Positions 4,591-63,126 of a stretch of 64,000 nucleotides of DNA are shown here, piece after piece. The notes under the pieces were generated by a model. That model was not told the origin of the DNA, did no database searches, and was given only the letters and a program-made list of their open reading frames with translations. The stretch spans positions 204,766 to 268,765 of the forward strand of contig JBAQTB010000003.1 in NCBI GenBank assembly GCA_049296775.1, given 5' to 3'. Positions within the stretch are counted from its first letter, which is position 1, and every line of letters starts with the position of its first letter. Made by a program: the position numbers and the translations under genes. Source of the DNA: Patescibacteria group bacterium. Its GTDB lineage: Bacteria > Patescibacteriota > Patescibacteriia > UBA9934.

Positions 4591-5020
4591 TCAGACAATG
4601 GGCATCACGATGATTCCCTACGGTGATATGGCCGCCTTCGGCGCGTGGCGGGCCAATGTGTTGAAATGATACCGTCTTGCTCGACTGAGCTCAACGGCGC
4701 TTGGTGTTTAAGGCTTACCCCCTGCACCGTTATAGCGTGCAGGGCTTAGACAGGCGTCATGAGTGACTCCAATAAGTCCGTTTGGCTACCGGTCGGCGCG
4801 TCGTTTTGCGAGCCCGGATGGTCGAAGCCAAGGGTTGATGTTTTGCCGGCGAAATTACCGACGGCGCGATTATTATCCCAACGCGTAATAACTTAGCGTT
4901 CAGCGGAAATTCCGCCGCGGGGGGAGTCGCATCCAAGCCAGGCCTGAACACGACTGCAGTAAGATAGCACAAATACTAGCTTTTGTCAAGCTAGTATGCT
5001 GAGTATTTAGCTAACTGTAG
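4591..5020 (-). ncRNA. Candidate structured non-coding RNA (identity unresolved) between uppS and the terminator
   Basis: ~430 bp without convincing ORF (only a 71-aa low-complexity ORF), several local hairpins (GGCCGCCUUCGGCG..., CCUGCACCGUUAUAGCGUGCAGG), ends at strong terminator on the minus strand; no RNase P / tmRNA / SRP consensus recognised by eye. Confidence 0.2.
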
Positions 5021-5809
5021 CTATTTTCCAAACCTACGATGTCTGGCCTGAAAGGAGCGTAAAGCTCTTAAAAAATCGACTCGTCTAAAGCCTGGCCAAT
5101 TGACATCCAAAAAATAATATTCACTAAAAGCCGCCTGCCACAGCAAAAAACCACTTAATCTGACTTCTCCGGAAGTTCTGATAATAAAGTCCGGATCGGG
5201 CACGTCGCCGTTGTACATGAATTTCGATAACGATTCTTCCGTCATGCGGGCGGCCGTATCTGTCACCGACAAACCTTCACGCTCACTAGCGAGCATGTAG
5301 CTCTTGCAAGCGTCCACAATCTCTTCCCTGCCGCCGTACGCCAACGCTAGCTGCACCAACATGCCCTTACGGTTAGCCGTGGTCGTTTCAAGGTCCTGCA
5401 AGGCGGCCTGCACGTCAGCCGGCAAATCATCTTTCCGGCCCAAGACCCTCACCCTGACATCATGTTTGATAAACTCCTCGTCTGTTTTCATAGCCTGGGC
5501 CTGATCGATGAAAAGTTGCATCAAAGCCTTGACCTCTTCTGGATCTCTAGAAAAATTCTGCGTACTAAACAGCCACAAAGTCACCACGGGAATTTTAAAT
5601 TCGCCGCACCAGGTCAACAAAGTGCGGACTTTTTTGGCCCCTAATCTATGCCCTTCACTGGTAGGCAATCCCAAAGCCTTAGCATGCCTGCGATTACCAT
5701 CCAAAATCACCCCCAAATGTTTTGGGAACGGCCCTGCCTCCAACCGTCGCATCAGACGGAAATCGTAAATTACGTATAACCAAGATTTTATCAGGGCTTT
5801 TAGTGGCAT
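5021..5809 (-). CDS. uppS: Undecaprenyl-diphosphate synthase (isoprenyl transferase)
   Basis: HLGVILDGNRRHAK, RTSGEVRLSGFLLWQ signature motifs. Confidence 0.9.
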   Translation of the reverse strand: MPLKALIKSWLYVIYDFRLMRRLEAGPFPKHLGVILDGNRRHAKALGLPTSEGHRLGAKKVRTLLTWCGEFKIPVVTLWLFSTQNFSRDPEEVKALMQLFIDQAQAMKTDEEFIKHDVRVRVLGRKDDLPADVQAALQDLETTTANRKGMLVQLALAYGGREEIVDACKSYMLASEREGLSVTDTAARMTEESLSKFMYNGDVPDPDFIIRTSGEVRLSGFLLWQAAFSEYYFLDVNWPGFRRVDFLRALRSFQARHRRFGK

Positions 5810-6114
5810 AAATCATTTATCGATCTAAACTTTATATACTCACCTTGCCACATAAAAGCAAAAATGTCTCATAGAGACATTTAAGCTAGACTTTAGAATT
5901 TAGTTGTATTTACCGTTTCGCTCGAAGGATTACGCGTAGTATCCTCATCGTTATGCGCTTACGAGGGCTTGGTTTACTTCCTGTAAATCTTGATTCTCGC
6001 TGATGAGCATGGCCAAGGCCGCGCAAGCAATAGCGAGTGTAAGAATTGTAACTGTCCAAATCGCCGTTTCAGAGACGCCTCTCTTTACCCCCTTCGATTT
6101 AGCCATATGTGTAA

Positions 6115-6891
6115 TTAAGTATTATGAGAGACTTTTAACGGTGTCTGTGCCCGCATCTTTTGGTACATGTACGCCTGAGCACTAAGCCCAACCATACTAG
6201 CGCCGAATACCACGACAAGCGCGTAAACGCCCACCAGGAACAGCGCGATTAAAACCAACCAAAATGGTAGCTGAGCAGCCATCATGGCACCTGCGATACC
6301 CATTGGCACTACCAACAAGGCAGCAACCATCAATCCGAGTCCTAAGCCGAATAAGAAAATCGTCATCTTATTGCCCTTGGTTAAGTGCATACTGTCCTCC
6401 AAAGCCTCAATAGCATTAGTCTGTTTGTCGACAATACTAAAAAGATTGAAAGAAAACATGATACTGGCAATAATGCCAGGCACGATCAATAGCACAAAAC
6501 CAACCATGATAATGAGATACATCAAAATCGTTGAGCCCAATGCCTGGAGAAACAATTTAGGATCGACCTTGATTAAGGTCGGAATATCTAAATCTTTATG
6601 CTTGGCGATTCTCAATATTCCAGCAATAGCGACTAAGCCAACATAAACATTTAAGGCGAAGGACAAGATTGAATCGATTAAATTAGGTATTGCTAATTTC
6701 GCATCGATAATCAAGTAAATAATGCCCGGCACGAAACTAATCGCGAAAATAAGGAGAAAAAGAATTAGATACTTCATCCAACTGGTCTTGGTCATTTCCC
6801 AACTAGCGGTGAAGACTTCCTGCACGCCGAACGCTGATGTAGTTTTATTCATAGTTACGCAGCATAATAGCACGAAAAACTTGCTTTTCAA
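6115..6891 (-). CDS. Polytopic integral membrane protein of unknown function
   Basis: 6-7 predicted hydrophobic helices, no catalytic motif recognised. Confidence 0.5.
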   Translation of the reverse strand: MKSKFFVLLCCVTMNKTTSAFGVQEVFTASWEMTKTSWMKYLILFLLIFAISFVPGIIYLIIDAKLAIPNLIDSILSFALNVYVGLVAIAGILRIAKHKDLDIPTLIKVDPKLFLQALGSTILMYLIIMVGFVLLIVPGIIASIMFSFNLFSIVDKQTNAIEALEDSMHLTKGNKMTIFLFGLGLGLMVAALLVVPMGIAGAMMAAQLPFWLVLIALFLVGVYALVVVFGASMVGLSAQAYMYQKMRAQTPLKVSHNT

Positions 6892-9196: not shown

Positions 9197-9453
9197 CCCC
9201 TCGGGAGGATACTTTCTTTACCAGAAAAGAAAGTATCCAAAGAAACCGCCCCGGCTTTAAGTCTGTCAGGGTTGAAGTTCGGCGTCACTCCGGGCAAACC
9301 TGGAGTTGGTCGAATTATTCCTAAGATTTCAACTTGTCTAGTGGAACCGACCAACACGGGATTTGCTATTCCTACGTTTCCGCCGAACTTCCTGACGAGG
9401 TCATCCCTAACAGACTCCGCCGGGGATCTGCAAACCACCGCTTACCGCCGTGA
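9197..9453 (-). ncRNA. Conserved structured element A (paralog of element B at 26567-26856); candidate novel ncRNA or cis-regulatory leader
   Basis: Shares with B identical blocks (GGATACTTTCTTT-loop-AAAGAAAGTATCC 13-bp hairpin, CAAAGAAA, CTGTCAG/CTGTCGAG, GGGCAAA, GCTATTCCT, CCGAA-TTCCTGA, CCACCGCTTACCGCCGTGA) and helices with compensatory changes; one G-U vs A-C difference weakly favours minus strand. Confidence 0.45.
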
Positions 9454-9491
9454 GTATCGCTCGGCAGCAAATCAGGAACACTTCTGATCTG

Positions 9492-9510
9492 AACCTTGCG
9501 TCGCAAAACA
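9492..9510. repeat. 19-bp direct repeat copy 2 (AACCTTGCGTCGCAAAACA)
   Basis: See copy 1 at 9160-9178. Confidence 0.5.
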
Positions 9511-9599
9511 TTTCTTCTCACCGTTCCTGCCGACAACCTAATCCCTCCTAACGTCGGGATAACACATAAGACGTCGATACCATTAAAACTACGCCATCA

Positions 9600-9628
9600 T
9601 TGACAAATAGTCGATTTTAGATTATAAA
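9600..9628 (+). promoter_or_regulatory. Sigma70-type promoter TTGACA-17-TATAAA for cassette gene 9726-10610
   Basis: TTGACAaatagtcgattttagatTATAAA; shares extended motif TTGACAAAWAGTCGATTTT with promoter at 62756. Confidence 0.5.
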
Positions 9629-9725
9629 GACCCCTGTTCTTTTCATTTTATTAGACTTCGTCTACCAATGAGTCCTGACGTGTAATCCGAACAGATCGAA
9701 CAAAAGCAAAACAGAGAGGTGGACA

Positions 9726-10610
9726 GTGGCACAAGACATCACGCCCGAACAGAGAGATCTCATCGTCAATCGCATCACAACTTCAGCGCGCGAGGCTATT
9801 GATAGCCTCAAGCTCAACGCCGACCAGGCGCGGCTCGTCATCGACAATCCAGACGGCCTCGCCAGGATTGTCGGCGATGTAATACGTAATCTTATCGCCT
9901 TATTTGTGGGCGTTGAGGAGCGCGTCAACAACGAGGCCTGCCTGATGTTAAGTGCAGACGAGGTGGCCAAACTGTCCGCCTGGTACCCCGACTACATCCC
10001 GGAAGGCATCAAGTCCGCGCGCGAGATCCTCGGCAACGACTTCATCTCGCCGGGCGAGATCGAGGCCAGCCGCCCCGGGCTCGTGTATAGCCTCTTGCAG
10101 TGGCAGGAACTCAGTAACAGCGTACCCTCAAAGGAGGTACTCGAATGGTGCCGCGATAACGGCTTCATGCTGGTAGCTGGCCCACCCCGTCCAATGTCGC
10201 TCCTCGAGATCCACGAACTCGACCGCGGCCACCTGCACTCGAAAGAGGCTAACTGGTACGCGGCTGAGAGCGAGGCCTTCGCCAGCTATGACAAGGCGGC
10301 CTGCCGCTGGCTCATGCTGCGCAAGGAGCCCGTGCCTGACTCCATAGAAAAGACCTGGGATGAGCAGCAACAGCTCCTCTCCAGCCTCGAGGTGACGCCC
10401 AACGTCGCCGAGCAGGTCTGGGGCTTGGCCATCTACAAGGCGGTCCGGGGCGTGGGTTTGTTACGGTTCGTATACGTCCGTACGTCGAGTACGGACTCGG
10501 ACGGTAACCGTGTGAGCGTCGGTTGCTTCGACCGGGACGGCACCATTCTCGTCCCCCACTACAATCATTGTCGGTACGACCGCATCGGAATCTCCTCCTC
10601 TCGGAAGTAG
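9726..10610 (+). CDS. Hypothetical protein (higher-GC, C-ending codon cassette gene), GTG start
   Basis: 294-aa ORF, RBS AGAGAGG upstream of GTG; codon third positions strongly C/G biased unlike neighbouring core genes; no known domain recognised. Confidence 0.6.
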   Translation: MAQDITPEQRDLIVNRITTSAREAIDSLKLNADQARLVIDNPDGLARIVGDVIRNLIALFVGVEERVNNEACLMLSADEVAKLSAWYPDYIPEGIKSAREILGNDFISPGEIEASRPGLVYSLLQWQELSNSVPSKEVLEWCRDNGFMLVAGPPRPMSLLEIHELDRGHLHSKEANWYAAESEAFASYDKAACRWLMLRKEPVPDSIEKTWDEQQQLLSSLEVTPNVAEQVWGLAIYKAVRGVGLLRFVYVRTSSTDSDGNRVSVGCFDRDGTILVPHYNHCRYDRIGISSSRK

Positions 10611-10659
10611 CAGCCCTCGTTCCTCGAGCCCTGTCCGTCGTTCACGGACATCGGGCCTT

Positions 10660-10700
10660 GATCCCCGCAAACCTAGGTTTGCGGGGATCTTTCTTTTTTT
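10660..10700 (+). terminator. Intrinsic terminator (perfect 14-bp palindrome GATCCCCGCAAACC-TAG-GGTTTGCGGGGATC + T-run)
   Basis: gatccccgcaaacctaggtttgcggggatctttcttttttt. Confidence 0.7.
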
Positions 10701-15358: not shown

Positions 15359-15387
15359 TTGACCTACAGCCAAAACATGGCTATCTT
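15359..15387 (+). promoter_or_regulatory. Sigma70-type promoter TTGACC-17-TATCTT for cassette gene 15449-16315
   Basis: cTTGACCtacagccaaaacatggcTATCTT, divergent from riboflavin kinase gene. Confidence 0.4.
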
Positions 15388-15448: not shown

Positions 15449-16315
15449 ATGTCCAATGTCGAGATTCCTCCTCTCAGCAAAGATCAGATCATGGACCTGT
15501 TGCTCATCAGTGGGCAGCAGGCAGCGCTGATCCGTGCTAAGCTCATCGATTTTCTCACCCTGCACGGCATCCCCAACCTAGCGGCACGGACCACCGGCGA
15601 GCTGGTGGGTGAAGTGATTTTGCTAGAGAAGACCATCGGGCCGCTTGGTACCGTCATGCAGAGCGTGGTTGCACCAAGTTCGATCCACCTCGAGCCCGAG
15701 CATCACTCAGCTGCCCGCCGTATCATGGGCGACAACTTCATGGGCATACCTGAAGTCACGAAAAGCTTCGGGTTCATCGATCTCAAGACACAGGCGTCGC
15801 TCTCTGTCATCCCGTTCGACGAAGCCACGCTCCGCGACTGTCGCCACACACACATGCTCGTGGCCGACACCGGCCTCAGCATCAAAGGAGTACGTCAACG
15901 CATAAAATATGCTCTGACGTGGGATCATCCTGAAGTCGAGGAACTCGCTAAACTTAACGAGTCGCCTGCGTGGCGACTAATCCAAACGCGCGAAGTGACT
16001 CACTCTGGGTGCAAAGAGTGGAATAAACAGTGCCGTCTGCTTGGTCAGGATGAGTACGTACCGACAGCCCGCCAACTGGTACACGCGATCATGCAGACCT
16101 TAGCCAAGCCAACTCTGACAGCAGCGATCATCATCCGAACAAATGATGTAACCTCAACCAAGAAACGTGTAACTCTACGCTTCACCCACTTCAGAGAACT
16201 CCGAATCGAGCAAGGGGATGACTCCAGTCTGGACTCCAACCTCAGAATAATGTGCGCGAAGAAGCCCCCGATCGAAGTTCCTCAGGAGTCGTCAACAAAT
16301 AGCTCGGCTGGCTGA
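15449..16315 (+). CDS. Hypothetical protein (higher-GC cassette gene)
   Basis: ORF track start 15437 is GTG; ATG at 15449 has RBS GGGAGA 5 nt upstream; C-ending codon bias; no domain recognised. Confidence 0.55.
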   Translation: MSNVEIPPLSKDQIMDLLLISGQQAALIRAKLIDFLTLHGIPNLAARTTGELVGEVILLEKTIGPLGTVMQSVVAPSSIHLEPEHHSAARRIMGDNFMGIPEVTKSFGFIDLKTQASLSVIPFDEATLRDCRHTHMLVADTGLSIKGVRQRIKYALTWDHPEVEELAKLNESPAWRLIQTREVTHSGCKEWNKQCRLLGQDEYVPTARQLVHAIMQTLAKPTLTAAIIIRTNDVTSTKKRVTLRFTHFRELRIEQGDDSSLDSNLRIMCAKKPPIEVPQESSTNSSAG

Positions 16316-16338
16316 AGCAAATCGGCCGTACGCCTCTG

Positions 16339-16372
16339 GGGCCGTCCATCACTGGACGGCCCTGTTTTTTTT
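16339..16372 (+). terminator. Intrinsic terminator (GGCCGUCCA-UCAC-UGGACGGCC + U9)
   Basis: ggccgtccatcactggacggccctgttttttttt. Confidence 0.7.
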
Positions 16373-16395: not shown

Positions 16396-16424
16396 TTGAC
16401 ATTTGGATGATTTTCTGCTAATCT
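16396..16424 (+). promoter_or_regulatory. Sigma70-type promoter TTGACA-17-TAATCT (with TGn) for cassette gene 16528-17253
   Basis: TTGACAtttggatgattttctgcTAATCT. Confidence 0.45.
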
Positions 16425-16527
16425 ATGCCGTTGTTGAACCTGGCATTTTGTTCCGAGTCCTTGGACCAAAGTGCCGTGTTTAACCAAGAATTGGTAGAAC
16501 ATAGCGAGACAACACAGGAGAGTCACC

Positions 16528-17253
16528 ATGCTTCAGAATTCCGAGCTCATCCACGACCTGTTCACCCCGCTCACCGACAAGCTGGCAATGGTGAGGAACT
16601 GGCCGGGCATCAATCCCAAAGAGGTTGACGAGGCCCTTAAAACGGCCGTTTACAATGGCACGATCATTGGTTACGAAGCTGAGGTACCCAAGAACAGGCA
16701 CCTCGACATCGTGATCACGCCCTACCGCGAGTCCGTCGCCGCCACGGCCTGCTACCTGCGTGACCGGATGGAGGAAGTCCACGGCGACCGCTACTGGCAA
16801 TGGCCCGAGGCCTACAACGAAAACATCGATGAGAACCGCATCAAGCTCATCGACGGTGCCGCGCCGTTCACCCCGAACCGGATCGTCATCGAGGTCGTAG
16901 ACTTCGGTACGAACTGGGATCGACAGATCGGTCTCATCGCCCAGGAAGTCCAGAAGGTCCAGGCCGACACGCTCGCTGGTTTCGCGGTCATCGCGAACGC
17001 CAGCCAGAGCCCGCGCTGGGTCGAACAGATGGACGGCCACACCGTGCCCTACGCCCTGGCCGCTCTCCTGCTTCTCAACGTGCCGCGGTGCGGCTCGTGG
17101 TCGTTCATGCCGAAGGTCTGTGACGGGGGCGGCAAGGCGGAGCTGGACGGCTACCACGTCGAGGACCGGTGCTGCCACGCTCTGCCCGTCCTCCGGAAGT
17201 ACCCTGACATCGTCGGCGAGATCGGCGACATGTTGCTCAAAGACTTACGCTGA
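16528..17253 (+). CDS. Hypothetical protein (higher-GC cassette gene)
   Basis: RBS AGGAGAG 6 nt upstream of ATG; strong C-ending codon bias; no domain recognised. Confidence 0.55.
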   Translation: MLQNSELIHDLFTPLTDKLAMVRNWPGINPKEVDEALKTAVYNGTIIGYEAEVPKNRHLDIVITPYRESVAATACYLRDRMEEVHGDRYWQWPEAYNENIDENRIKLIDGAAPFTPNRIVIEVVDFGTNWDRQIGLIAQEVQKVQADTLAGFAVIANASQSPRWVEQMDGHTVPYALAALLLLNVPRCGSWSFMPKVCDGGGKAELDGYHVEDRCCHALPVLRKYPDIVGEIGDMLLKDLR

Positions 17254-17272
17254 AGCTCACTCAGCCACCTCA

Positions 17273-17308
17273 CGACACCTGGAAAATCCTCACCAGGTGT
17301 CGTTTTTA
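17273..17308 (+). terminator. Intrinsic terminator (CGACACCUGG...CCAGGUGUCG + U5)
   Basis: cgacacctggaaaatcctcaccaggtgtcgttttt. Confidence 0.7.
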
Positions 17309-17371: not shown

Positions 17372-17836
17372 ATGCACAATCACGCCCCGGAAAATTATTG
17401 TTGTCCGATCTGTATTGCTATCAGCGGTATCGAGAATGATGACACATGGATAAAACAAGCTGATATTTTTTATCTAGATGATCTAGTGATGGGGTTGATT
17501 AGTTCCAAAGCTATCAAAGGCAACGATGGCCACCCGCTCATTGTGCCCCTCAAACATTTTGAGAATTTATACGACTTGCCCGATGCATACTCTCATCGGA
17601 TCATCGCGGTTGCTCGTAAAGTAGCCATAGCTATGAAAGTAGTACGGCAATGCGATGGAGTAACGGTCCTGCAGAATAATGAACCCGCCGGCGACCAACA
17701 CGCTTTTCATTATCACATGCACCTGGTACCTCGCTTTACCGACGATCATTTTCCTGAAGAACTGTGGAAGGCACAAAAATCAAACCCAAAAGATCGAATC
17801 GAATATGCTCAGACCTTAAAGAAGCAGTTGGCATAA
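17372..17836 (+). CDS. HIT-family (histidine triad) protein
   Basis: HAFHYHMHLVPR histidine-triad motif near C-terminus. Confidence 0.8.
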   Translation: MHNHAPENYCCPICIAISGIENDDTWIKQADIFYLDDLVMGLISSKAIKGNDGHPLIVPLKHFENLYDLPDAYSHRIIAVARKVAIAMKVVRQCDGVTVLQNNEPAGDQHAFHYHMHLVPRFTDDHFPEELWKAQKSNPKDRIEYAQTLKKQLA

Positions 17837-17884
17837 AAGGTTTGGACTTGCTACTATGCTGGCGTCCAAATGCGGAGGATAACC

Positions 17885-18289
17885 ATGACCTGGTCAGACA
17901 GAGGAGAGGAGTATCAAGAACCACGAAACGCACCAAGATATGATGTGCTACTCAGTCAACTCTTGCACCATCATCAAGACCAAAAGTTGTTGGCGACCTG
18001 TAGCCGCGCCGGCTTTGTACTAGTCCGCGACGCTGCCAAACTCACCGGCGATGAGCTAGTCGCCAAACACGGCTTCACGAAACGCGAGGTTGAAGCCTTA
18101 CATCGTGCTTTTGCCGGTGAACCCAAGTACGAGTCCCCAATTGAACACGGCCCCGCCTTCGCTCACCTGATAGAGCTCTATATGCGAGACCTCAGTGGCA
18201 GCGAGAGCAACCCCGTTCGCGCCTGGGAAAAACTCGGCGAGCTCGGTGCCCAGCCCAAACAACGTCCGCCACACCGACCTCACGTCTGA
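17885..18289 (+). CDS. Hypothetical protein
   Basis: RBS GGAGG 6 nt upstream of ATG at 17885 (ORF-track start 17870 less likely); moderately elevated GC; no domain recognised. Confidence 0.45.
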   Translation: MTWSDRGEEYQEPRNAPRYDVLLSQLLHHHQDQKLLATCSRAGFVLVRDAAKLTGDELVAKHGFTKREVEALHRAFAGEPKYESPIEHGPAFAHLIELYMRDLSGSESNPVRAWEKLGELGAQPKQRPPHRPHV

Positions 18290-18304
18290 ACACCCGTCCC
18301 CATC

Positions 18305-18334
18305 CCACGGAGCCCAGCTCCGTGGCTTTTTTTA
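18305..18334 (+). terminator. Intrinsic terminator (CCACGGAGC-CCA-GCUCCGUGG + U7), convergent with lipoprotein gene
   Basis: ccacggagcccagctccgtggcttttttt. Confidence 0.65.
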
Positions 18335-26566: not shown

Positions 26567-26856
26567 TCCCCTTCCGGGGGAGATACTTTCTTTGTAGGAC
26601 AAAGAAAGTATCCAAAGAAAACCTTTCAAGCTCCCACCTTTAGGTCTGTCGAGACTGAAATTCGTCGTCGCTACGGGCAAAACAAATCCCAACCGATTCT
26701 TTATCGTTCAACTGTACGGACAGATAGACGACCCGTCCGTACAGTTATAGTATCGGCTGGAGTTGTTTTGCTATTCCTTCGCTCTCGCCGAATTTCCTGA
26801 AAACTGTCAGCCTCAACAGACCGCGGTGGGATGCGCTCCACCGCTTACCGCCGTGA
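26567..26856 (-). ncRNA. Conserved structured element B (paralog of element A); lies directly upstream of cysS in minus-strand sense
   Basis: See element A; additional B-specific perfect hairpin ACTGTACGGAC...GTCCGTACAGT; G-U wobble (minus) vs A-C mismatch (plus) in inner helix. Confidence 0.45.
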
Positions 26857-26865
26857 ATAGAGCCG

Positions 26866-26905
26866 ACAACAAAACAGCCGCGCCTTATAAATTAAGGTGC
26901 GGCTG
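26866..26905 (-). terminator. Hairpin + U-run (minus strand) overlapping the stop codon of the anti-sigma-like gene
   Basis: plus strand aacaaaaCAGCCGCgccttataaattaaggtGCGGCTG; 7-bp stem, 17-nt loop. Confidence 0.45.
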
Positions 26906-35386: not shown

Positions 35387-37063
35387 TTAGAATTCAGAGT
35401 GAGTTAGGTTTTGTAAATCCTTCTTGCCAAGATTACCCCACTGTGGCCGGAGTGTCTTCTTCTTTTTCAACAGCTGCGCAAAATGTTCGCCGCCCAGGAT
35501 CGAGGGAACAATGACAAAGGTGGCACCGAGCGCATACGCTTTAACAGCATCTTCAGAAGATTTGACGGTGAGAATGAATGAGCCTTTAGCCTTACGATTA
35601 CGGGCAAAGTCCATAATGTCTTCATTCACCGCCATGTCAGGAATGGCGGAAATGACCATTTTGGCTTTATCAGCTTTAATGAACTTGAGCAGATCTTCAT
35701 TACCGACATCGCCATAAATGGCTCTGACGCCGTTATGTTCCAGGGCTTCAATAGCAGCCGGATTATAATCGACTACCAAATAGTTATCTGTGATTTCTTG
35801 GATCATGGGTAGCACTTTCTTGCCCATTCTGTCGTAGCCTAACATGACGATTTCTGGAGCCACATCCGGTGCATCATCGGCGTCATTTTTCTGATGCTGC
35901 AAAAATGGTAACAACTTGGTCAGTAAATCGAAAATCTTTTCGTTGTAAGAGATCAGGTAAGAGGAACCAGCAATGGTCACCAAGCCCACTACAGTAGTTA
36001 GAGCCAAATTTGATGCGGGAATAACACCCATAGTCACACCACCCGCAATTACAATAAACGAAAATTCGCTGATCTGAGCCACGGTGGTACCCACCAAAAA
36101 ACCAGTTCTGGGGTGATAACCAAGGACACGCATGAGCACCAGCACAATCAACGGGTTGCCGATCAGGATAAATAAACTAAAGACTAAACTTGGTAACCAG
36201 AGTTGGGAAAGATCTCCAGCAGTCAGATGCGTGCCAAGGACGATAAAGAAAATAACCAGGAAAAAGTCACGTAAAACTCTGACCTTGGCTTCAATTTCAT
36301 GCTGGAAACCACTACCGGCCAAACTAATACCCGCCAACAAGGCACCAATTTCGATGCCAAAACCTAGCATGTGCAAGGCGGACGCAATGGCAAAGCACCA
36401 GGCTAGGGCTAAAACAAAGAGTAACTCCGTCGACTTGGCAGCGTACCGGAACAGATGCGGGATGAGGAACTTGGCAACTAAGAATAGGACTCCGATCACG
36501 AGCGCGACCTTGCCAAGAGACACGGTCAAAATCGCTGACCAGCTCCCGCCGTCCTGCCAAGCGGCCAAGAAAATCAAAATGAGCATGGCGATCAGGTCTT
36601 GGACAATCAACATGCCGATAGCAATACGTCCGTACAATCTCTCCAAATCTTCTTTGTCGGTCAATAGCTTGACGATGATGATGGTGGAAGAGAAGGCAAA
36701 GGCCACTGACAAAAAACCGGCTGTAATGTAATCGAAACCTAAAGCCACACCAATCAGCCAACCGATAATGGAAGTAAACAGCACCTGACCAAAACCAATC
36801 ACGAGCGCCACCTTGCCGACCTCCGCGATGTTGCGCCAGTTAAGATTCAAGCCCACGATAAACAACAGCAAAGCAATGCCAATTGAGGACAATGTCTCAA
36901 ACAGATCCACCGATTGCACCAGACCCAACAAGCCAGGACCGGCGATAATACCCGTCAGAATGTAAGCAATAATCAGCGGCTGACGTAAGCGGTGCGCCAA
37001 CAATGACAACAAACTAGCTGTCAAAATTACAATAGAAATCTCTAAAAAAAGTTCATTCAGCAT
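35387..37063 (-). CDS. CPA2-family cation:proton antiporter (Kef-like) with C-terminal RCK/TrkA-N domain
   Basis: 12 TM helices followed by Rossmann-type MLGYDRMGKKVLPMI RCK domain. Confidence 0.8.
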   Translation of the reverse strand: MLNELFLEISIVILTASLLSLLAHRLRQPLIIAYILTGIIAGPGLLGLVQSVDLFETLSSIGIALLLFIVGLNLNWRNIAEVGKVALVIGFGQVLFTSIIGWLIGVALGFDYITAGFLSVAFAFSSTIIIVKLLTDKEDLERLYGRIAIGMLIVQDLIAMLILIFLAAWQDGGSWSAILTVSLGKVALVIGVLFLVAKFLIPHLFRYAAKSTELLFVLALAWCFAIASALHMLGFGIEIGALLAGISLAGSGFQHEIEAKVRVLRDFFLVIFFIVLGTHLTAGDLSQLWLPSLVFSLFILIGNPLIVLVLMRVLGYHPRTGFLVGTTVAQISEFSFIVIAGGVTMGVIPASNLALTTVVGLVTIAGSSYLISYNEKIFDLLTKLLPFLQHQKNDADDAPDVAPEIVMLGYDRMGKKVLPMIQEITDNYLVVDYNPAAIEALEHNGVRAIYGDVGNEDLLKFIKADKAKMVISAIPDMAVNEDIMDFARNRKAKGSFILTVKSSEDAVKAYALGATFVIVPSILGGEHFAQLLKKKKTLRPQWGNLGKKDLQNLTHSEF

Positions 37064-37121
37064 AATCCTCCAATTTGCAGGAATTATAGCATGAATATTT
37101 GGCCGTTAAACGCCTGGTCAT

Positions 37122-37150
37122 TTGACCAAAACTTGCAATCAAGCTAAGCT
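37122..37150 (+). promoter_or_regulatory. Sigma70-type promoter TTGACC-17-TAAGCT for cassette gene 37186-38295
   Basis: TTGACCaaaacttgcaatcaagcTAAGCT, RBS AGGAGG before ATG. Confidence 0.4.
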
Positions 37151-37185
37151 CCAGTGTCGGTTTTCCGACCTAGGAGGTAACGAAC

Positions 37186-38295
37186 ATGGCCGAGTCTGTC
37201 AACCGCAAATACAGTGTCATCCCAAGTGAAGAACACCTGGGTGGCAAGATCCGCATCCCCCGCTATACGACGGTCAGTCTGACTGACAAACCAGAGAGCT
37301 GGACCGTGCCTGACCCGGCGCCCTTCATGGCGCAGGTGCAGGCGGCCGTGGCTCAATACTACATGCGATTCGTATCCGCTGCCGGCGAACAGAAACTACC
37401 ATTCGAACTGACGTCCGACGTCATGGGGAGCGACGTCAGCGCCTACCTCCAGAAAAGGGCACCAGCCTATGGCATTCCGGCAGCGGCGCTGACCTACGCC
37501 CAGCATCGCCTGAATCTCGCAGGCCTGACATACGATGAGTCGGTGGCTGGCCTGTGCGACTTGGCCCACACGGCAAGCAGCGTTGCCGTCACCCTGACCA
37601 AAGACAAGTGGTCGGATGCCAGAATGAGCATGGACGCTGGTAATGTGATCATCGAGTCACGGCCCGACGACCCCGAAGACGTGCAAGCGGCGTTAGCCGA
37701 GCTCCAGCAAACCGGCTGCAAGCGCATCCGTGATCTGGACGGCTACACCGGCCGCTGTCCAGACTTCAGCAGTCCGCTCGTGCGCTACAGACTGGGAGTC
37801 TGCAGTGTGATCTGGCTGGAGGATAGAGGGCAATTCATGATCACGCGGCGGGGCCGCGCCGTGAACGGCCTCAACACTGGCCGAGTCTGCGCTGCTTCCG
37901 GCGCCGTGAACTGGCGCCACGTGGAGGCGCAGACTCCGGACAAATACGGACGCGTCCAACTACAGGCCGTGCTACACGCAGCCATGGAGGAAGAGGCACG
38001 AGAAGAAATTGCCGACATTGATTGGGAGATTACTCCCATTGGCGCAGCGCGTGAACTGACGCGCCGCGGCTCACCCGAGTTCTTCTACATCCTGCAGCCG
38101 AAAAGACTCAGGCTCGAAGCATTGCTGGAAGCCATGAGCGCCAATACTCACCCAGGAGCGCAGGAGGTAGATGACATTCTCTATCTCCTTACCCCGCAAT
38201 TAGTGAGGGAGCTCATGAAACCAGAGGCAGCGGGGATCATTCACCCCAAAGGCTTGATGAATCTCGGATTGGCACGCGGCATGATCGTCGGCTAA
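37186..38295 (+). CDS. Hypothetical protein (higher-GC cassette gene)
   Basis: 369 aa, strong RBS AGGAGGT, C-ending codon bias, no domain recognised. Confidence 0.55.
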   Translation: MAESVNRKYSVIPSEEHLGGKIRIPRYTTVSLTDKPESWTVPDPAPFMAQVQAAVAQYYMRFVSAAGEQKLPFELTSDVMGSDVSAYLQKRAPAYGIPAAALTYAQHRLNLAGLTYDESVAGLCDLAHTASSVAVTLTKDKWSDARMSMDAGNVIIESRPDDPEDVQAALAELQQTGCKRIRDLDGYTGRCPDFSSPLVRYRLGVCSVIWLEDRGQFMITRRGRAVNGLNTGRVCAASGAVNWRHVEAQTPDKYGRVQLQAVLHAAMEEEAREEIADIDWEITPIGAARELTRRGSPEFFYILQPKRLRLEALLEAMSANTHPGAQEVDDILYLLTPQLVRELMKPEAAGIIHPKGLMNLGLARGMIVG

Positions 38296-38310
38296 AGGCC
38301 GCAAACACTG

Positions 38311-38347
38311 CGGCCGGCATCAACATGATGCCGGCCGCGTTTTCTTT
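38311..38347 (+). terminator. Intrinsic terminator (11-bp stem CGGCCGGCAUC/GAUGCCGGCCG + U-rich), convergent with next gene
   Basis: cggccggcatcaacatgatgccggccgcgttttcttt; preceded by second hairpin GGCCGCaaacactGCGGCC. Confidence 0.65.
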
Positions 38348-39350
38348 ATACTTGGTAAGCTCCGTTGGCGTACACTAGGGTATCGTCTAGATAAACTTGA
38401 TCTGTGACGGCGAAGACGTCCACGTGATACTGACCTTCACGGCGTTTCATGCCGGGCTTGGCGTAGATGGAGTGCTTGGCGCCAAGGGATAAGTGAATGC
38501 CGCACATGCGTTCATACGTGCCGATATCCGCCACGTGCTGCTCCCGGCTAAAAGCTCGGTTCATGCCGAAACCTAATTCACGAACCCAAACCTCTTCATC
38601 AGCTTTGATTTGCGCAATGACCAGATCGAAATCTGGCGTACTGTTCTTAACTGCTACCACTTTTGAGGCTTCAATAACTAGAGTAATTGGCTCAGCGGGC
38701 AAATTAACCTTGAAATTCGTATCGCCAAAAGCAAAAATCCTGACCTCTCCGTTTACGCCACTCAAATCCTGAGCCTCCGTAAACACCTCCCCAATCGGAA
38801 ACTGGCCACCCACATTTTTCATGCCGGAATAATCGCCAATATTCAATTTAGCATCTTCAAATTTAGTGGTGTAATCCAAAGTTGCTCCCCCACTCTCCAC
38901 CCTAGCCGAACCCGCGGCATCAATCAGGTGTTTGAGCTTATTCCCAACTACGCGGTAATAGCTAGAATCATAAGCTAAAGAGTTGATATACACCTCCATG
39001 TCCTGACCTTGCATGCGGAACAGATGCGGATGTTCAATCACTTTCAAACCTTGTTTGAAGAGCTCAACGCGTAACCGAAACTCGTTTAATCGGAAACTGA
39101 GTGACTGCACTAACACCACCAAATCACCGGGCTGCAGCTCCGCCAACACAGCTAAAATTTGCTCGGCCGAAGTACTTTCAAAATCTAAAAAAGTCGCTTC
39201 TGGCAAAGCCTGCCGGTAACCGGCAGCCACCAAGGTCGACAACTGACTGTACTCATCAAAAACCACCACGGCCCGATGTTCCGGGGTATACAAAATCGCC
39301 TGGGCTAAAACAGCTTGTAAATTTTGTGTGGCAGTTTCAAGTAAAGTCAT
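38346..39350 (-). CDS. Putative aminopeptidase (M29/AmpS-like), low-confidence family call
   Basis: 334 aa; weak resemblance to aminopeptidase T family; no motif confirmed. Confidence 0.3.
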   Translation of the reverse strand: MTLLETATQNLQAVLAQAILYTPEHRAVVVFDEYSQLSTLVAAGYRQALPEATFLDFESTSAEQILAVLAELQPGDLVVLVQSLSFRLNEFRLRVELFKQGLKVIEHPHLFRMQGQDMEVYINSLAYDSSYYRVVGNKLKHLIDAAGSARVESGGATLDYTTKFEDAKLNIGDYSGMKNVGGQFPIGEVFTEAQDLSGVNGEVRIFAFGDTNFKVNLPAEPITLVIEASKVVAVKNSTPDFDLVIAQIKADEEVWVRELGFGMNRAFSREQHVADIGTYERMCGIHLSLGAKHSIYAKPGMKRREGQYHVDVFAVTDQVYLDDTLVYANGAYQV

Positions 39351-42665: not shown

Positions 42666-42694
42666 TTTACAAAATGTACCAAAGCATGTATACT
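42666..42694 (+). promoter_or_regulatory. Sigma70-type promoter TTTACA-17-TATACT
   Basis: TTTACAaaatgtaccaaagcatgTATACT; ORF-track start 42674 lies inside this promoter. Confidence 0.45.
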
Positions 42695-42715: not shown

Positions 42716-43132
42716 ATGCCAATATTTCCCTTCCCCGTTGCTAACCCCCTGGTCAAGTCCGCGTTCGATCAAGTGGAATTCGCACTGTGTTGTGCGGCAC
42801 TACTTGAGCACCCCCCACTGGAAATAAGTGGCAGAAGCTTCAGGTACAGAGCTCATAGACGCCTCAGTGTCGGCATCTCCATCACCCTGACCTGGGGAGG
42901 AGAATACACCGAGACCAAGACAGATACCGCGGCCAAGGTCAGGTCCCAGACTGTCATCTTCGTGCGGCTGTGCCAAAACGAAGATCTGGTGATCGGAGTC
43001 GAATGCTTGGTCGAGCCCGACAGGCATATCTGGCTACTCAGACATGCAGGTGAGGTGGAAGAAATCAGCTACCTCGAGGCACTCAAGATCATTGATGATA
43101 CCAGCCAAGGCTGGCGTCTATCGCACCCCTAA
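42716..43132 (+). CDS. Hypothetical protein (cassette gene)
   Basis: ATG at 42716 preceded by RBS GAGGAG; 138 aa; no domain recognised. Confidence 0.45.
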   Translation: MPIFPFPVANPLVKSAFDQVEFALCCAALLEHPPLEISGRSFRYRAHRRLSVGISITLTWGGEYTETKTDTAAKVRSQTVIFVRLCQNEDLVIGVECLVEPDRHIWLLRHAGEVEEISYLEALKIIDDTSQGWRLSHP

Positions 43133-43158: not shown

Positions 43159-43198
43159 GCAGCCGCCCTACGCTTAGGACGGCTGCTTTCTTTTTCTT
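43159..43198 (+). terminator. Intrinsic terminator (GCAGCCG...CGGCUGC + U-rich), convergent with murF
   Basis: gcagccgccctacgcttaggacggctgctttctttttctt. Confidence 0.6.
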
Positions 43199-50878: not shown

Positions 50879-50956
50879 ATTGCGCGAAAGTGTAAGGGAT
50901 TAACCAGCTAAAGTCTAGGCATTTTCTGCGTAACTCTGGACAAGTCCAAGGGCCGG

Positions 50957-50985
50957 TTGACAAATGACGATAATTGGGCTAATCT
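50957..50985 (+). promoter_or_regulatory. Sigma70-type promoter TTGACA-17-TAATCT
   Basis: TTGACAaatgacgataattgggcTAATCT; the TTG of the -35 box is the ORF-track start of the 166-aa ORF. Confidence 0.45.
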
Positions 50986-51067
50986 GAGACGTTGCTTTTT
51001 GCTGTGCAGCATCATGCTGCTCACGGGCAACACTCCACGTGATGAGAACGAGATGCGAGGCTACGTC

Positions 51068-51457
51068 ATGAAACATTTGTTTGGAGAAGGAAACGATTGC
51101 TCGGAAGAGGATCAGCACGAAACCGACGAAGGGTTCGTCGCGAGGCCCCACCACAGCGTCTGCTCGCCCCGGGCGGACGTGAACGAGATCGCTGACGATG
51201 AGTGCGTCCCACTCGACGAAATCGATGACGAACAAACCGTTCCACCAGACTGCGACGACGCGGACGATCTTCCACGTCAACGGCCCGACCGCTTCGCGCT
51301 CAGTCAGGAAGGGGAAGAAGTCGATGACTACGAGTACGACGACGACACCACTGACGCCGAAGACGACGTCATGATGTCGGACGTGGCACGACACGACCGC
51401 GCACCGATGCGCAGTCGACGCCCCCTGCCCGCAAGACGCGTGGCTATCAGTCGCTGA
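51068..51457 (+). CDS. Highly acidic hypothetical protein (cassette gene); start uncertain
   Basis: ATG at 51068 with GAGG 7 nt upstream lies downstream of promoter; D/E-rich product; plus strand preferred over overlapping 182-aa minus ORF because promoter and terminator flank it. Confidence 0.35.
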   Translation: MKHLFGEGNDCSEEDQHETDEGFVARPHHSVCSPRADVNEIADDECVPLDEIDDEQTVPPDCDDADDLPRQRPDRFALSQEGEEVDDYEYDDDTTDAEDDVMMSDVARHDRAPMRSRRPLPARRVAISR

Positions 51458-51484
51458 GACCATCGCCTAGATCGATTGTCTTCT

Positions 51485-51518
51485 AGTCCTACCCCTTAAA
51501 GGTAGGACTTTTCTTTTG
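51485..51518 (+). terminator. Intrinsic terminator (AGUCCUACC...GGUAGGACU + U-rich), convergent with next gene
   Basis: agtcctaccccttaaaggtaggacttttctttt. Confidence 0.65.
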
Positions 51519-51525
51519 GTAAATT

Positions 51526-62605: not shown

Positions 62606-62676
62606 GGACTCGCGGTAAAGGTTTGCCTCATCTGGCCTGTCACCCGATGATGCGGGTTCGAATCCCGCCGAGTCCA
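62606..62676 (+). other. tRNA-like element (perfect acceptor stem and T arm, non-canonical anticodon arm, no encoded CCA) enclosed by an outer 9-bp stem (62592-62600 / 62691-62699)
   Basis: GGACTCG...GCGGG-TTCGAAT-CCCGC-CGAGTCC-A; D arm only 3 bp; no 5-bp anticodon stem with U33/R37 loop could be drawn; outer repeat CCGGAAGTC ... GACTTCCGG. Confidence 0.3.
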
Positions 62677-62755: not shown

Positions 62756-62784
62756 TTGACAAAAGTCGATTTTTATGCTATTAT
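62756..62784 (+). promoter_or_regulatory. Sigma70-type promoter TTGACA-17-TATTAT (TGn extended -10)
   Basis: TTGACAaaagtcgatttttatgcTATTAT; near-identical upstream half to promoter at 9600. Confidence 0.5.
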
Positions 62785-62825: not shown

Positions 62826-63065
62826 ATGGAAATGGAAAACGAAGACCTCATGCCCTTGAGAAAACAGGTGCGAAAAGGGCGTATCACAGCGTGCGCGGCG
62901 CGTCGATTCGGCCGACTGGACCTCGAGAACGTCGCCGTAACCTTCCGGCAAGAAGACGGCTGTGCACGTGACATTATCCGTTGTGACGACGGCCAGGCAA
63001 TTGGCTTCGTCATTATCTACGGAATGGATGGAGTAACCGAACAGCCCCTCGAAGAAATCGGATAA
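62826..63065 (+). CDS. Small hypothetical protein (79 aa; higher-GC cassette gene)
   Basis: ATG at 62826 with RBS GAGGA; ORF-track start 62775 falls inside the promoter; flanked by own promoter and terminator. Confidence 0.5.
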   Translation: MEMENEDLMPLRKQVRKGRITACAARRFGRLDLENVAVTFRQEDGCARDIIRCDDGQAIGFVIIYGMDGVTEQPLEEIG

Positions 63066-63092: not shown

Positions 63093-63126
63093 AACGCCCC
63101 AAGCAACTGCTAGGGGCGTTTTTGAT
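63093..63126 (+). terminator. Intrinsic terminator (AACGCCCC...GGGGCGUU + U-run), convergent with mltG
   Basis: aacgccccaagcaactgctaggggcgtttttg. Confidence 0.65.

What the first reader, a model, noticed from the sequence alone, without database searches (positions are those of the whole stretch)
9600..10700. Single-gene cassettes with foreign-looking codon usage, each with its own consensus promoter and terminator
At least seven ORFs code for proteins with no domain I could recognise and show conspicuously C/G-ending codons (for example CTC GAG ATC CAC GAA CTC GAC CGC GGC), unlike the G/T-ending preference of core genes such as dnaK. They are 9726-10610, 15449-16315, 16528-17253, 37186-38295, 42716-43132, 51068-51457 and 62826-63065. 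Each is monocistronic, inserted between core genes, and usually convergent with the next core gene. Each is preceded by a near-consensus sigma70 promoter (TTGACA or TTGACC, 17-bp spacer, TAnnnT) and followed by a strong GC-rich hairpin plus T-run. The ORF-track starts for several of them are TTG or GTG codons that fall inside the -35 box, so the real starts are downstream ATG/GTG codons with good RBS. The pattern looks like repeated acquisition of individually expressed accessory genes, possibly from a higher-GC donor. Their functions are unknown. The proteins do not resemble each other.
Basis: partly seen in the sequence, partly recalled or inferred. Interest (0 to 1): 0.7.

Follow-up and report, generated by a model that had tools for sequence, protein, structure and literature searches.

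The report
Stand-alone retroelement-target genes with odd codons
The flagged gene and two of its six companions belong to protein families that a reverse-transcriptase system (a diversity-generating retroelement, DGR) hypermutates in related ultra-small bacteria, and their G/C-ending codons are a trait of those families, not a mark of a foreign donor.

Summary
The window comes from a Patescibacteria (CPR) genome. The observation largely holds. Against 66 core genes (GC3 mean 0.51, sd 0.05), c1 9726-10610 (0.78), c3 (0.84) and c4 (0.70) are strong outliers. c6 is moderate, c2 and c5 are borderline, and c7 is not an outlier. Own promoters and terminators are real.

c1 has 133 homologues in CPR genomes. 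In several loci the homologue sits beside a template repeat (TR), Avd and a reverse transcriptase, and its 3' end differs from the TR almost only at TR adenines, which is the DGR signature. The c1 model has a C-type lectin fold like known DGR variable proteins. c2 is a degenerate paralogue of c1. c3 belongs to a second, unrelated DGR-target family.

No TR, Avd or RT lies in the window or 10 kb upstream, so these are solitary copies. They are either targeted in trans or frozen.

In about 30 loci the target gene has far higher GC3 than its host, and in the RT-linked ones than its own RT and Avd. Four phage DGRs lack this effect, so "higher-GC donor" fails for c1 and c3. c4 to c7 remain unexplained accessory genes.

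The parts
9600..9628 (+). c1 promoter-like site, TTGACA-17 nt-TATAAA
   Evidence: Read from the sequence. The -10 box lacks the final T, so the consensus scan did not list it.
9726..10610 (+). c1: solitary gene for a DGR-type variable protein (294 aa, NCBI WAZ14_03825), GC3 0.78
   Evidence: It has 133 homologues. Homologues sit next to TR-Avd-RT with adenine-specific VR/TR mismatches. GC3 z-score is 5.6.
9993..10607 (+). c1 C-type lectin-fold domain (about residues 90-294)
10470..10607 (+). c1 variable-region (VR) equivalent: VYVRTSS...IGISSSRK
   Evidence: In alignment A2 this stretch is a conserved scaffold with hypervariable positions. It is homologous to the VRs paired with TRs in L002, L015 and L012. 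No cognate TR was found in the window.
10633..10649 (+). Short GC-rich inverted repeat downstream of the c1 stop (GTCCGT-CGTTC-ACGGAC)
   Evidence: Read from the sequence. Whether it acts as a DGR homing hairpin was not tested.
10660..10699 (+). c1 intrinsic terminator (13-bp stem plus T-run)
15359..15387 (+). c2 promoter, TTGACC-17-TATCTT
15449..16315 (+). c2: divergent, degenerate paralogue of c1, GC3 0.64
   Evidence: blastp to c1 gives 24% over 270 aa, E 8e-8. A closer homologue in L012 (7652-8143) carries a VR of the local TR. The VR scaffold of c2 itself is decayed.
16337..16372 (+). c2 terminator (12-bp stem plus T8)
16396..16424 (+). c3 promoter, TTGACA-17-TAATCT
16528..17253 (+). c3: solitary member of a second DGR-target family (241 aa, WAZ14_03860), GC3 0.84
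   Evidence: It has 26 homologues. L031, L034 and L035 have Avd and/or RT adjacent. The VR/TR pairs of L031 and L034 have mismatches at TR adenines.
17074..17202 (+). c3 VR-equivalent (LLLLNVP...PVLRKY)
   Evidence: Alignment A4 shows a conserved scaffold with hypervariable positions. It is homologous to the VRs of L031 and L034.
17272..17307 (+). c3 terminator (11-bp stem, 10-nt loop, T-run)
   Evidence: Read from the sequence. The scan missed it because the loop exceeds 8 nt.
37122..37150 (+). c4 promoter, TTGACC-17-TAAGCT
37186..38295 (+). c4: 369-aa protein of a small CPR family, GC3 0.70; not a DGR target by the available evidence
   Evidence: 34 representative homologues. The syntenic orthologue in L037 is 52% identical. 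No VR-like C-terminus. Only sub-threshold Nudix hints.
38309..38349 (+). c4 terminator (14-bp stem)
42666..42694 (+). c5 promoter, TTTACA-17-TATACT
42716..43132 (+). c5: 138-aa orphan, GC3 0.63, absent from the syntenic relative
   Evidence: Gene call of 138 aa. In L037 the Na/H exchanger and Mur ligase genes are adjacent.
43159..43197 (+). c5 terminator hairpin plus T-run
   Evidence: Read from the sequence.
50957..50985 (+). c6 promoter, TTGACA-17-TAATCT
51068..51457 (+). c6: acidic 129-aa ORF, GC3 0.67; coding strand uncertain
   Evidence: Promoter, GAGG RBS and terminator lie on the + strand. The public gene call takes the - strand ORF 50915-51463.
51485..51519 (+). c6 terminator
62756..62784 (+). 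c7 promoter, TTGACA-17-TATTAT
62826..63065 (+). c7: 79-aa orphan, GC3 0.59 (within the normal range)
63093..63123 (+). c7 terminator hairpin plus T-run
   Evidence: Read from the sequence.

Best explanation
The feature at 9600-10700 is a stand-alone, separately transcribed gene for a diversity-generating-retroelement (DGR) type variable protein in a Patescibacteria genome. The protein has a helical N-terminal part and a C-type lectin-fold domain. The last ~45 residues of that domain form the variable region (VR).

In relatives the same family lies directly upstream of a template repeat (TR), an Avd gene and a DGR reverse transcriptase. There, TR RNA is copied into cDNA with random bases opposite template adenines, and the cDNA overwrites the VR. 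This rewrites the ligand-binding surface.

c2 is a decayed paralogue of c1. c3 is a member of a second, unrelated target family used by the same kind of CPR DGR.

In this window the three genes have no TR, Avd or RT nearby. They are therefore either targets acted on in trans by a DGR elsewhere in the genome or frozen copies (inferred, not shown).

Their G/C-ending codons are a property of these target-gene families wherever they occur. It is not evidence of a recent higher-GC donor. c4 to c7 are unrelated small accessory genes with a milder T-to-C third-position shift, and their function stays unknown.
For: FAMILY AND DGR LINKAGE, c1.
- c1 has 133 homologues, all from CPR lineages.
- P0025 (53% identical) is followed by bAvd and an RVT_1 RT. 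Its 3' 118 nt are repeated 471 nt downstream, and 16 of 17 mismatches are at adenines of the second copy.
- The same holds in L015 (17 of 17), and in L012 for the c2-like gene's VR (12 of 13). In L012 one TR matches VRs in both a c1-like and a c2-like gene; the c1-like pair is out of register by an indel, so its mismatches could not be scored.

FAMILY AND DGR LINKAGE, c3.
- Avd and/or RT are adjacent in L031, L034 and L035.
- Mismatches are at TR adenines: 12 of 14 in L031 and 15 of 15 in L034.

PROTEIN FEATURES.
- Both families show a conserved C-terminal scaffold with hypervariable positions, and c1 and c3 fit it.

COMPOSITION.
- In 10 RT- or Avd-linked loci the target has GC3 0.64-0.89. RT has 0.38-0.61 and Avd 0.39-0.61.
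- Mean third-position composition of targets is A 0.11, C 0.42, G 0.31, T 0.17. For RT/Avd it is 0.24, 0.24, 0.24, 0.28.
- Target and RT divergence correlate, r 0.80.
- GC3 is high along the whole CDS.
- Four phage DGRs show no such excess.

EXPRESSION SIGNALS. Promoters and terminators are present.
Against: - No TR-like repeat, RT or Avd was found in the 64-kb window or in the 10 kb upstream. Ongoing diversification of c1 and c3 is therefore unproven.
- c1 departs from its subfamily scaffold at a few normally constant VR positions (for example GL to GT). That could mean the VR is no longer refreshed from a TR.
- c4 to c7 share part of the codon signature but show no DGR link, so a second, more general cause must also act in this lineage.
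- The phage control has only four loci.
Confidence: 0.8

Rival explanations
1. First reader's view. All seven genes are independent horizontal acquisitions from higher-GC donors, and the codon usage is the un-ameliorated donor signature.
For: - Composition is atypical.
- c5 is absent from a close relative, and that relative has other GC3-rich small genes elsewhere (L037 3506-3973 at 0.69, 5726-6160 at 0.74).
- The c1 and c3 families are at non-syntenic positions across genomes.
- Codon usage runs opposite to that of ribosomal-protein genes.
Against: - For c1 and c3 the excess recurs in about 30 loci in hosts of 30-60% GC. It is specific to the target gene, while the co-inherited RT and Avd are host-like.
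- c4 is syntenic in a relative at only 52% identity yet still has GC3 0.68, so its composition has persisted for a long time.
- No integrase, flanking direct repeats or confirmed tRNA junctions were found.
Confidence: 0.25
2. c1 and c3 are active remote targets. A DGR elsewhere on the 383-kb contig supplies TRs and RT in trans, perhaps next to the 61%-identical paralogue WAZ14_03675 about 30 genes upstream.
For: - A paralogue exists on the same contig.
- The VR scaffolds of c1 and c3 are largely intact and GC3 is still very high. The degenerate members c2, L022 and L024 have lost most of the excess.
- Non-adjacent and remote DGR targets are documented (PMC5758913).
Against: - c1 and c3 have unrelated VR sequences, so two TRs would be needed.
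- About half of the homologous loci with full 10-kb flanks also lack TR and RT. Solitary copies are therefore common, and many may be relics.
Confidence: 0.35
3. Some of the 'genes' are shadow ORFs opened by high GC3 on the strand opposite the real gene.
For: Long antisense ORFs exist opposite c3 (16480-17178) and c6 (50915-51463). The public gene call for c6 is on the - strand.
Against: - c1, c3 and c4 have many homologues conserved in the + strand frame.
- c4, c5 and c7 are called on the + strand.
- Promoter, RBS and terminator of c6 are all on the + strand.
Confidence: 0.1

Closest known systems
DGR variable proteins with a C-type lectin fold (Treponema TvpA 2y3c, Bordetella phage Mtd 1yu0, Thermus TaqVP 5vf4)
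   Different: Sequence identity to these structures is only 9-12%. There is no Pfam FGE-sulfatase or DUF1566 hit. The helical N-terminal part has no known relatives. The copy in the window has no adjacent TR or RT.
CPR-restricted cellular DGRs ('clade 2' of Roux et al. 2021, PMC8144416; first reported by Paul et al. 2017)
   Same: The host lineage matches. The targets have no recognisable transmembrane or other conserved domain, as that paper states for CPR targets. The cassette layout is target-TR-Avd-RT.
   Different: The window holds only the target genes. The gene-wide GC3 excess of targets over their own RT and Avd is not mentioned in the papers I could search.
Non-adjacent or remote DGR targets (for example the seven remote targets of the Treponema denticola DGR; Wu et al. 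2018, PMC5758913)
   Same: The VR-bearing genes lie far from any RT.
   Different: Those targets were assigned because a TR with A-only differences exists in the same genome. That could not be checked here. The paper reports remote targets only outside the CPR lineage.
Horizontally acquired genomic islets with atypical composition
   Same: Composition is atypical, presence in relatives is patchy (c5), and the genes have their own expression signals.
   Different: Acquired genes are usually AT-richer than the host (my own knowledge), whereas these are GC-richer. For c1 and c3 the anomaly is confined to one gene of a co-inherited cassette.

Membership tests
DGR variable (target) protein family | Homologues carry a 3' VR matched by a nearby TR that differs at TR adenines | tested here: met
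   c1 family: L002 16/17 and L015 17/17 (L012's c1-like VR is out of register and was not scored). c2-like: L012 12/13. c3 family: L031 12/14, L034 15/15.
DGR variable (target) protein family | The VR lies in a C-type lectin (or Ig-like) fold | tested here: met
Complete DGR locus | A cognate TR for the VR of c1, c2 or c3 in the same DNA | tested here: not met
   No repeat of the 3' 180 nt of c1, c2 or c3 occurs anywhere in the 64-kb window. The rest of the genome was not available.
Complete DGR locus | DGR-type reverse transcriptase and Avd | tested here: not met
   tblastn with the L002 RT and Avd finds nothing in the window (best E 0.63). None is among the called genes 10 kb upstream.
Complete DGR locus | IMH at the VR end and a GC-rich inverted repeat downstream | tested here: inconclusive
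   Inverted repeats at 10633-10649 and 10660-10689 follow the c1 stop. The second is equally an intrinsic terminator. IMH cannot be defined without a TR.
Active diversification | Population-level variation confined to VR positions that correspond to TR adenines | not testable with these tools
   This needs the reads of SRR28012402. The only hint is that the Logan assembly of that run breaks at window 9237 and resumes at 10395, inside c1 (coordinates derived).
Recently acquired foreign island | Genes transferred together share the atypical composition | tested here: not met
   RT and Avd next to the targets have host-like GC3 (0.38-0.61 against 0.64-0.89 for targets). They co-diverge with the target.
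Recently acquired foreign island | Absent from close relatives at the same position | tested here: inconclusive
   c5 is absent and c4 is present in the syntenic relative L037. No syntenic relative was available for c1, c2, c3, c6 or c7.
Nudix hydrolase (considered for c4) | Nudix box or a Pfam NUDIX match | tested here: not met
   Pfam NUDIX scores E 0.093 in 1 of 15 family members. The PDB profile hit to NUDT17 has E 0.76. This is only a visual resemblance.

The most novel reading that the evidence does not exclude
CPR DGR target genes carry a gene-wide depletion of A and T at synonymous sites that is specific to the target. A3 falls to 0.03-0.07, and C3 > G3 and A3 < T3 on the sense strand. 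Their own RT and Avd genes, their hosts and phage DGR targets all lack this. It would be the footprint of an unrecognised process tied to CPR-type DGR activity. Candidates are low-level adenine mutagenesis or biased gene conversion spreading from the VR over the whole gene through long read-through cDNAs, or selection for A-poor target transcripts. If so, the signature could be used to find DGR targets, including solitary ones, from composition alone.
Probability: 0.3. Interest if true: 0.7.

Novelty: new member of a known kind. Interest (0 to 1): 0.5.

Why it matters
- It gives three 'hypothetical' Patescibacteria genes a concrete mechanistic context. They encode hypervariable ligand-binding proteins of the kind thought to mediate cell-cell or cell-virus contact in these episymbionts.
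- It shows that solitary VR-bearing genes without a nearby RT are common in these families. DGR surveys that need RT and VR on one contig miss them, as Roux et al. note (PMC8144416).
- It turns a presumed horizontal-transfer signature into a reproducible compositional anomaly specific to one gene class. If that is general for CPR DGRs, it needs a mechanistic explanation and could serve as a detection signal.

Tried and rejected
SEARCHES THAT GAVE NOTHING OR LITTLE.
- Pfam, NCBIfam, PHROGs and PADLOC on all seven proteins gave no hits. Only the neighbour 17372-17836 matched, and it looks HIT-family-like.
- Alignment A2 was too diverse for locus searching, so I used A3 instead.
- The viral-contig scan for the c3 family found nothing.
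- Looking up the paralogue P0002 to reach a possible DGR in the same genome failed because it is not on record.
- The 10 kb upstream of the window holds only core genes.
- The c3 fold search gave no significant match.
- The Nudix idea for c4 had only sub-threshold support.

IDEAS REJECTED.
- Translational selection as the cause of the C-ending codons. Ribosomal-protein genes of this genome prefer T-ending codons.
- GC3 excess as a general property of DGR targets. It is absent in four phage DGRs: Bacillus BalMu-1, Dulem virus 37, a Shewanella phage and a Bacteroides phage.
- Pure sense-strand adenine erosion as the sole cause. T3 is depleted almost as much as A3.
- Head-on orientation as a family trait. 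Solitary homologues in other genomes show mixed orientation relative to their neighbours.

Full report
SOURCE AND BACKGROUND

The window has about 49% GC. 46 of 54 core genes counted in the window lie on the - strand, and GC skew on the + strand is steadily negative. An exact-protein look-up places it on a Logan contig of run SRR28012402. NCBI names the proteins 'MAG: Patescibacteria group bacterium', locus tags WAZ14_*, on a contig of 383,515 bp.

CHECKING THE OBSERVATION

I computed GC3 for 66 core genes, taken from the window plus 10 kb upstream. The mean is 0.512, the sd 0.047 and the maximum 0.63.

| Cassette | Coordinates | GC3 | z |
|---|---|---|---|
| c1 | 9726-10610 | 0.78 | 5.6 |
| c3 | 16528-17253 | 0.84 | 7.0 |
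| c4 | 37186-38295 | 0.70 | 4.0 |
| c6 | 51068-51457 | 0.67 | 3.3 |
| c2 | 15449-16315 | 0.64 | 2.6 |
| c5 | 42716-43132 | 0.63 | 2.6 |
| c7 | 62826-63065 | 0.59 | 1.6 |

- GC3 is high along the whole CDS of c1 and c3, not only at one end.
- Core genes on the + strand already have C3 > G3, so part of the C-ending impression is strand asymmetry.
- All seven still prefer C over T at third positions, with C/(C+T) 0.68-0.85. The + strand core genes give 0.51-0.62 and ribosomal-protein genes 0.26-0.47. Translational selection is therefore excluded.
- The promoter pattern TTGACN-N17-TAnnnT occurs 7 times against 1.7 expected, and 0 of 100 shuffles reach 7. Five of these sites precede c2, c3, c4, c6 and c7.
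- c1 has TTGACA-17-TATAAA and c5 has TTTACA-17-TATACT.
- Strong hairpins followed by T-runs follow all seven.
- The public gene calls confirm the shorter starts of c5 and c7.
- The six independent insertions (c2 and c3 are adjacent) all lie on the minority strand.
- Corrections to the finding: c1 and c2 are paralogues. The gene after c1 is on the + strand. The coding strand of c6 is uncertain.

WHAT c1 IS

- c1 has 133 homologues at E below 1e-3. None of them has a functional name or a Pfam domain. Those with a lineage name come from Pace-, Parcu-, Vogel- and Moranbacteria and relatives. One is a 61%-identical paralogue on the same contig, WAZ14_03675.
- The homologue P0025 (53% identical) lies directly upstream of a bAvd gene and an RVT_1 reverse transcriptase.
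- The last 118 nt of P0025 are repeated 471 nt downstream at 86% identity. 16 of the 17 differences are adenines in the downstream copy. This is the defining signature of a DGR, with a VR in the gene and a TR beside the RT.
- The same pattern holds in L015. In L012 one TR matches two VRs, one in a c1-like gene and one in a c2-like gene; the c2-like pair is adenine-specific (12/13), while the c1-like pair is out of register and was not scored.
- In the family alignment the body is well conserved. The last ~45 residues are a fixed scaffold (YVRTSS.DS.G.RV.VG.FD..GL.V.....D..R...LGVSSARK) with hypervariable positions in between. c1 fits this scaffold and c2 is degenerate.

WHAT c3 IS

- c3 has 26 homologues. 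Their C-terminus has the same kind of scaffold with variable positions.
- In L031 and L034 the homologue is followed by Avd and RT; on the short contig L035 only Avd is seen. The VR/TR pairs of L031 and L034 differ at TR adenines in 12 of 14 and 15 of 15 positions.
- c3 therefore belongs to a second, unrelated DGR-target family.
- Its model gave no significant fold match. It may be one of the unrecognised lectin-fold variants that Roux et al. expect in CPR (PMC8144416).

WHAT IS MISSING IN THE WINDOW

- There is no TR-like repeat of any of the three 3' ends.
- There is no RT or Avd homologue, and none in the 10 kb upstream.
- This is not unusual. Among homologous loci with full flanks, L003, L005, L013, L016, L020, L023, L025, L027 and L036 also lack TR and RT. 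In L025, L027 and L036 the gene is also wedged alone against oppositely oriented core genes.
- Whether c1 and c3 are diversified in trans could not be tested. The rest of the genome was out of reach.

THE CODON ANOMALY

- In nearly every locus the target gene has the highest GC3 of its 20-kb neighbourhood. Examples: L003 0.81 against a median of 0.23, L014 0.84 against 0.35, L016 0.80 against 0.42, L034 0.88 against 0.47, L013 0.47 against 0.15.
- In the RT-linked loci the RT (0.38-0.61) and Avd (0.39-0.61) are host-like, while the target is 0.64-0.89.
- Mean third-position composition of targets is A 0.11, C 0.42, G 0.31, T 0.17. For RT and Avd it is 0.24, 0.24, 0.24, 0.28.
- Target and RT divergences correlate, r 0.80 over 21 non-independent pairs. 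They are therefore inherited together, and separate origins cannot explain the difference.
- Divergent or degenerate members (c2, L022, L024) have little or no excess.
- Four phage DGRs show no excess.
- The anomaly is thus a trait of these two CPR target families, and its cause is unknown.
- Sense-strand adenine erosion alone does not fit, because T3 is also depleted.
- Biased gene conversion, or selection on the target transcript or DNA, remain possible.
- The DGR papers I could search mention only that about 20% of whole DGRs deviate in GC from their host, which they read as horizontal transfer (PMC5758913).

THE OTHER FOUR CASSETTES

- c4 has 34 representative homologues and no VR-like end.
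- c4 is conserved at the same position in a relative whose core proteins are mostly 70-86% identical. It is itself only 52% identical there, with GC3 0.68. A Nudix-like resemblance is sub-threshold.
- c5 is absent from that relative. The relative carries other GC3-rich small genes at another spot.
- c6 and c7 have no detectable relatives in the libraries tried.
- c4 to c7 show a T-to-C shift at third positions with normal A3. This signature differs from that of c1 and c3.
- For these four, acquisition from elsewhere remains a reasonable but untested idea.

VERDICT

- It is wrong on two points: function and relatedness are recoverable for three of the seven, and the donor-GC explanation fails for c1 and c3.
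- c1 is a new, solitary member of a known kind, a CPR DGR variable protein.
- The compositional signature specific to target genes is the part that may be new.

Noticed in passing
window 9203-9476 and 26578-26877: Two intergenic regions share a ~270-nt non-coding element. It is 75-76% identical, has frameshifts and stops in every frame, and contains strongly conserved blocks such as CCACCGCTTACCGCCGTGA. There is no Rfam hit even at E 1. On the - strand both copies would be 5' leaders, one of cysS and one of an 88-aa gene plus era. It is a candidate unclassified structured RNA or leader.
   Followed up: partly
window 62606-62676 (+): A marginal tRNA-like Rfam match (29.7 bits, gathering score 29) lies directly upstream of the c7 promoter, and ARAGORN does not call it. 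It may be a degenerate tRNA or an integration-site remnant.
   Followed up: no
window 9238-10394: The Logan assembly of SRR28012402 ends one contig at window 9237 and starts the next at 10395, inside c1. The c1 body is therefore missing from both contigs (coordinates derived). Possible causes are the paralogue, strain variation or coverage.
   Followed up: no
window 17372-18325 (+): Two further + strand genes follow c3. 17372-17836 is HIT-family-like (PADLOC ThsC2 E 4.9e-12, PHROG 19494). 17870-18289 has no hits, GC3 0.58 and its own terminator at 18305-18325. Together with c2 and c3 they form a 3-kb + strand islet.
   Followed up: partly
L004 229-3112, compared with window 35387-38295: In a distant relative a complete DGR cassette (c1-like target, TR, Avd, RT) sits next to the Na/H-TrkA gene and the hrcA-grpE-dnaK-dnaJ operon. 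That is the slot c4 occupies in the window, which suggests an insertion hot spot.
   Followed up: partly
L002 3000-20449: The DGR of L002 lies in a GC3-rich island that also holds a ParB-methyltransferase gene, a large helicase gene and a serine recombinase gene. The flank to its left has GC3 0.33-0.40. Some CPR DGRs therefore ride on mobile islands.
   Followed up: no
window promoters at 4961(-), 15359, 16396, 37122, 50957, 62756: These six of the seven exact matches to the promoter pattern have GC immediately before the -10 TA (GCTAnnnT). This may be an extended -10 preference in this organism.
   Followed up: no
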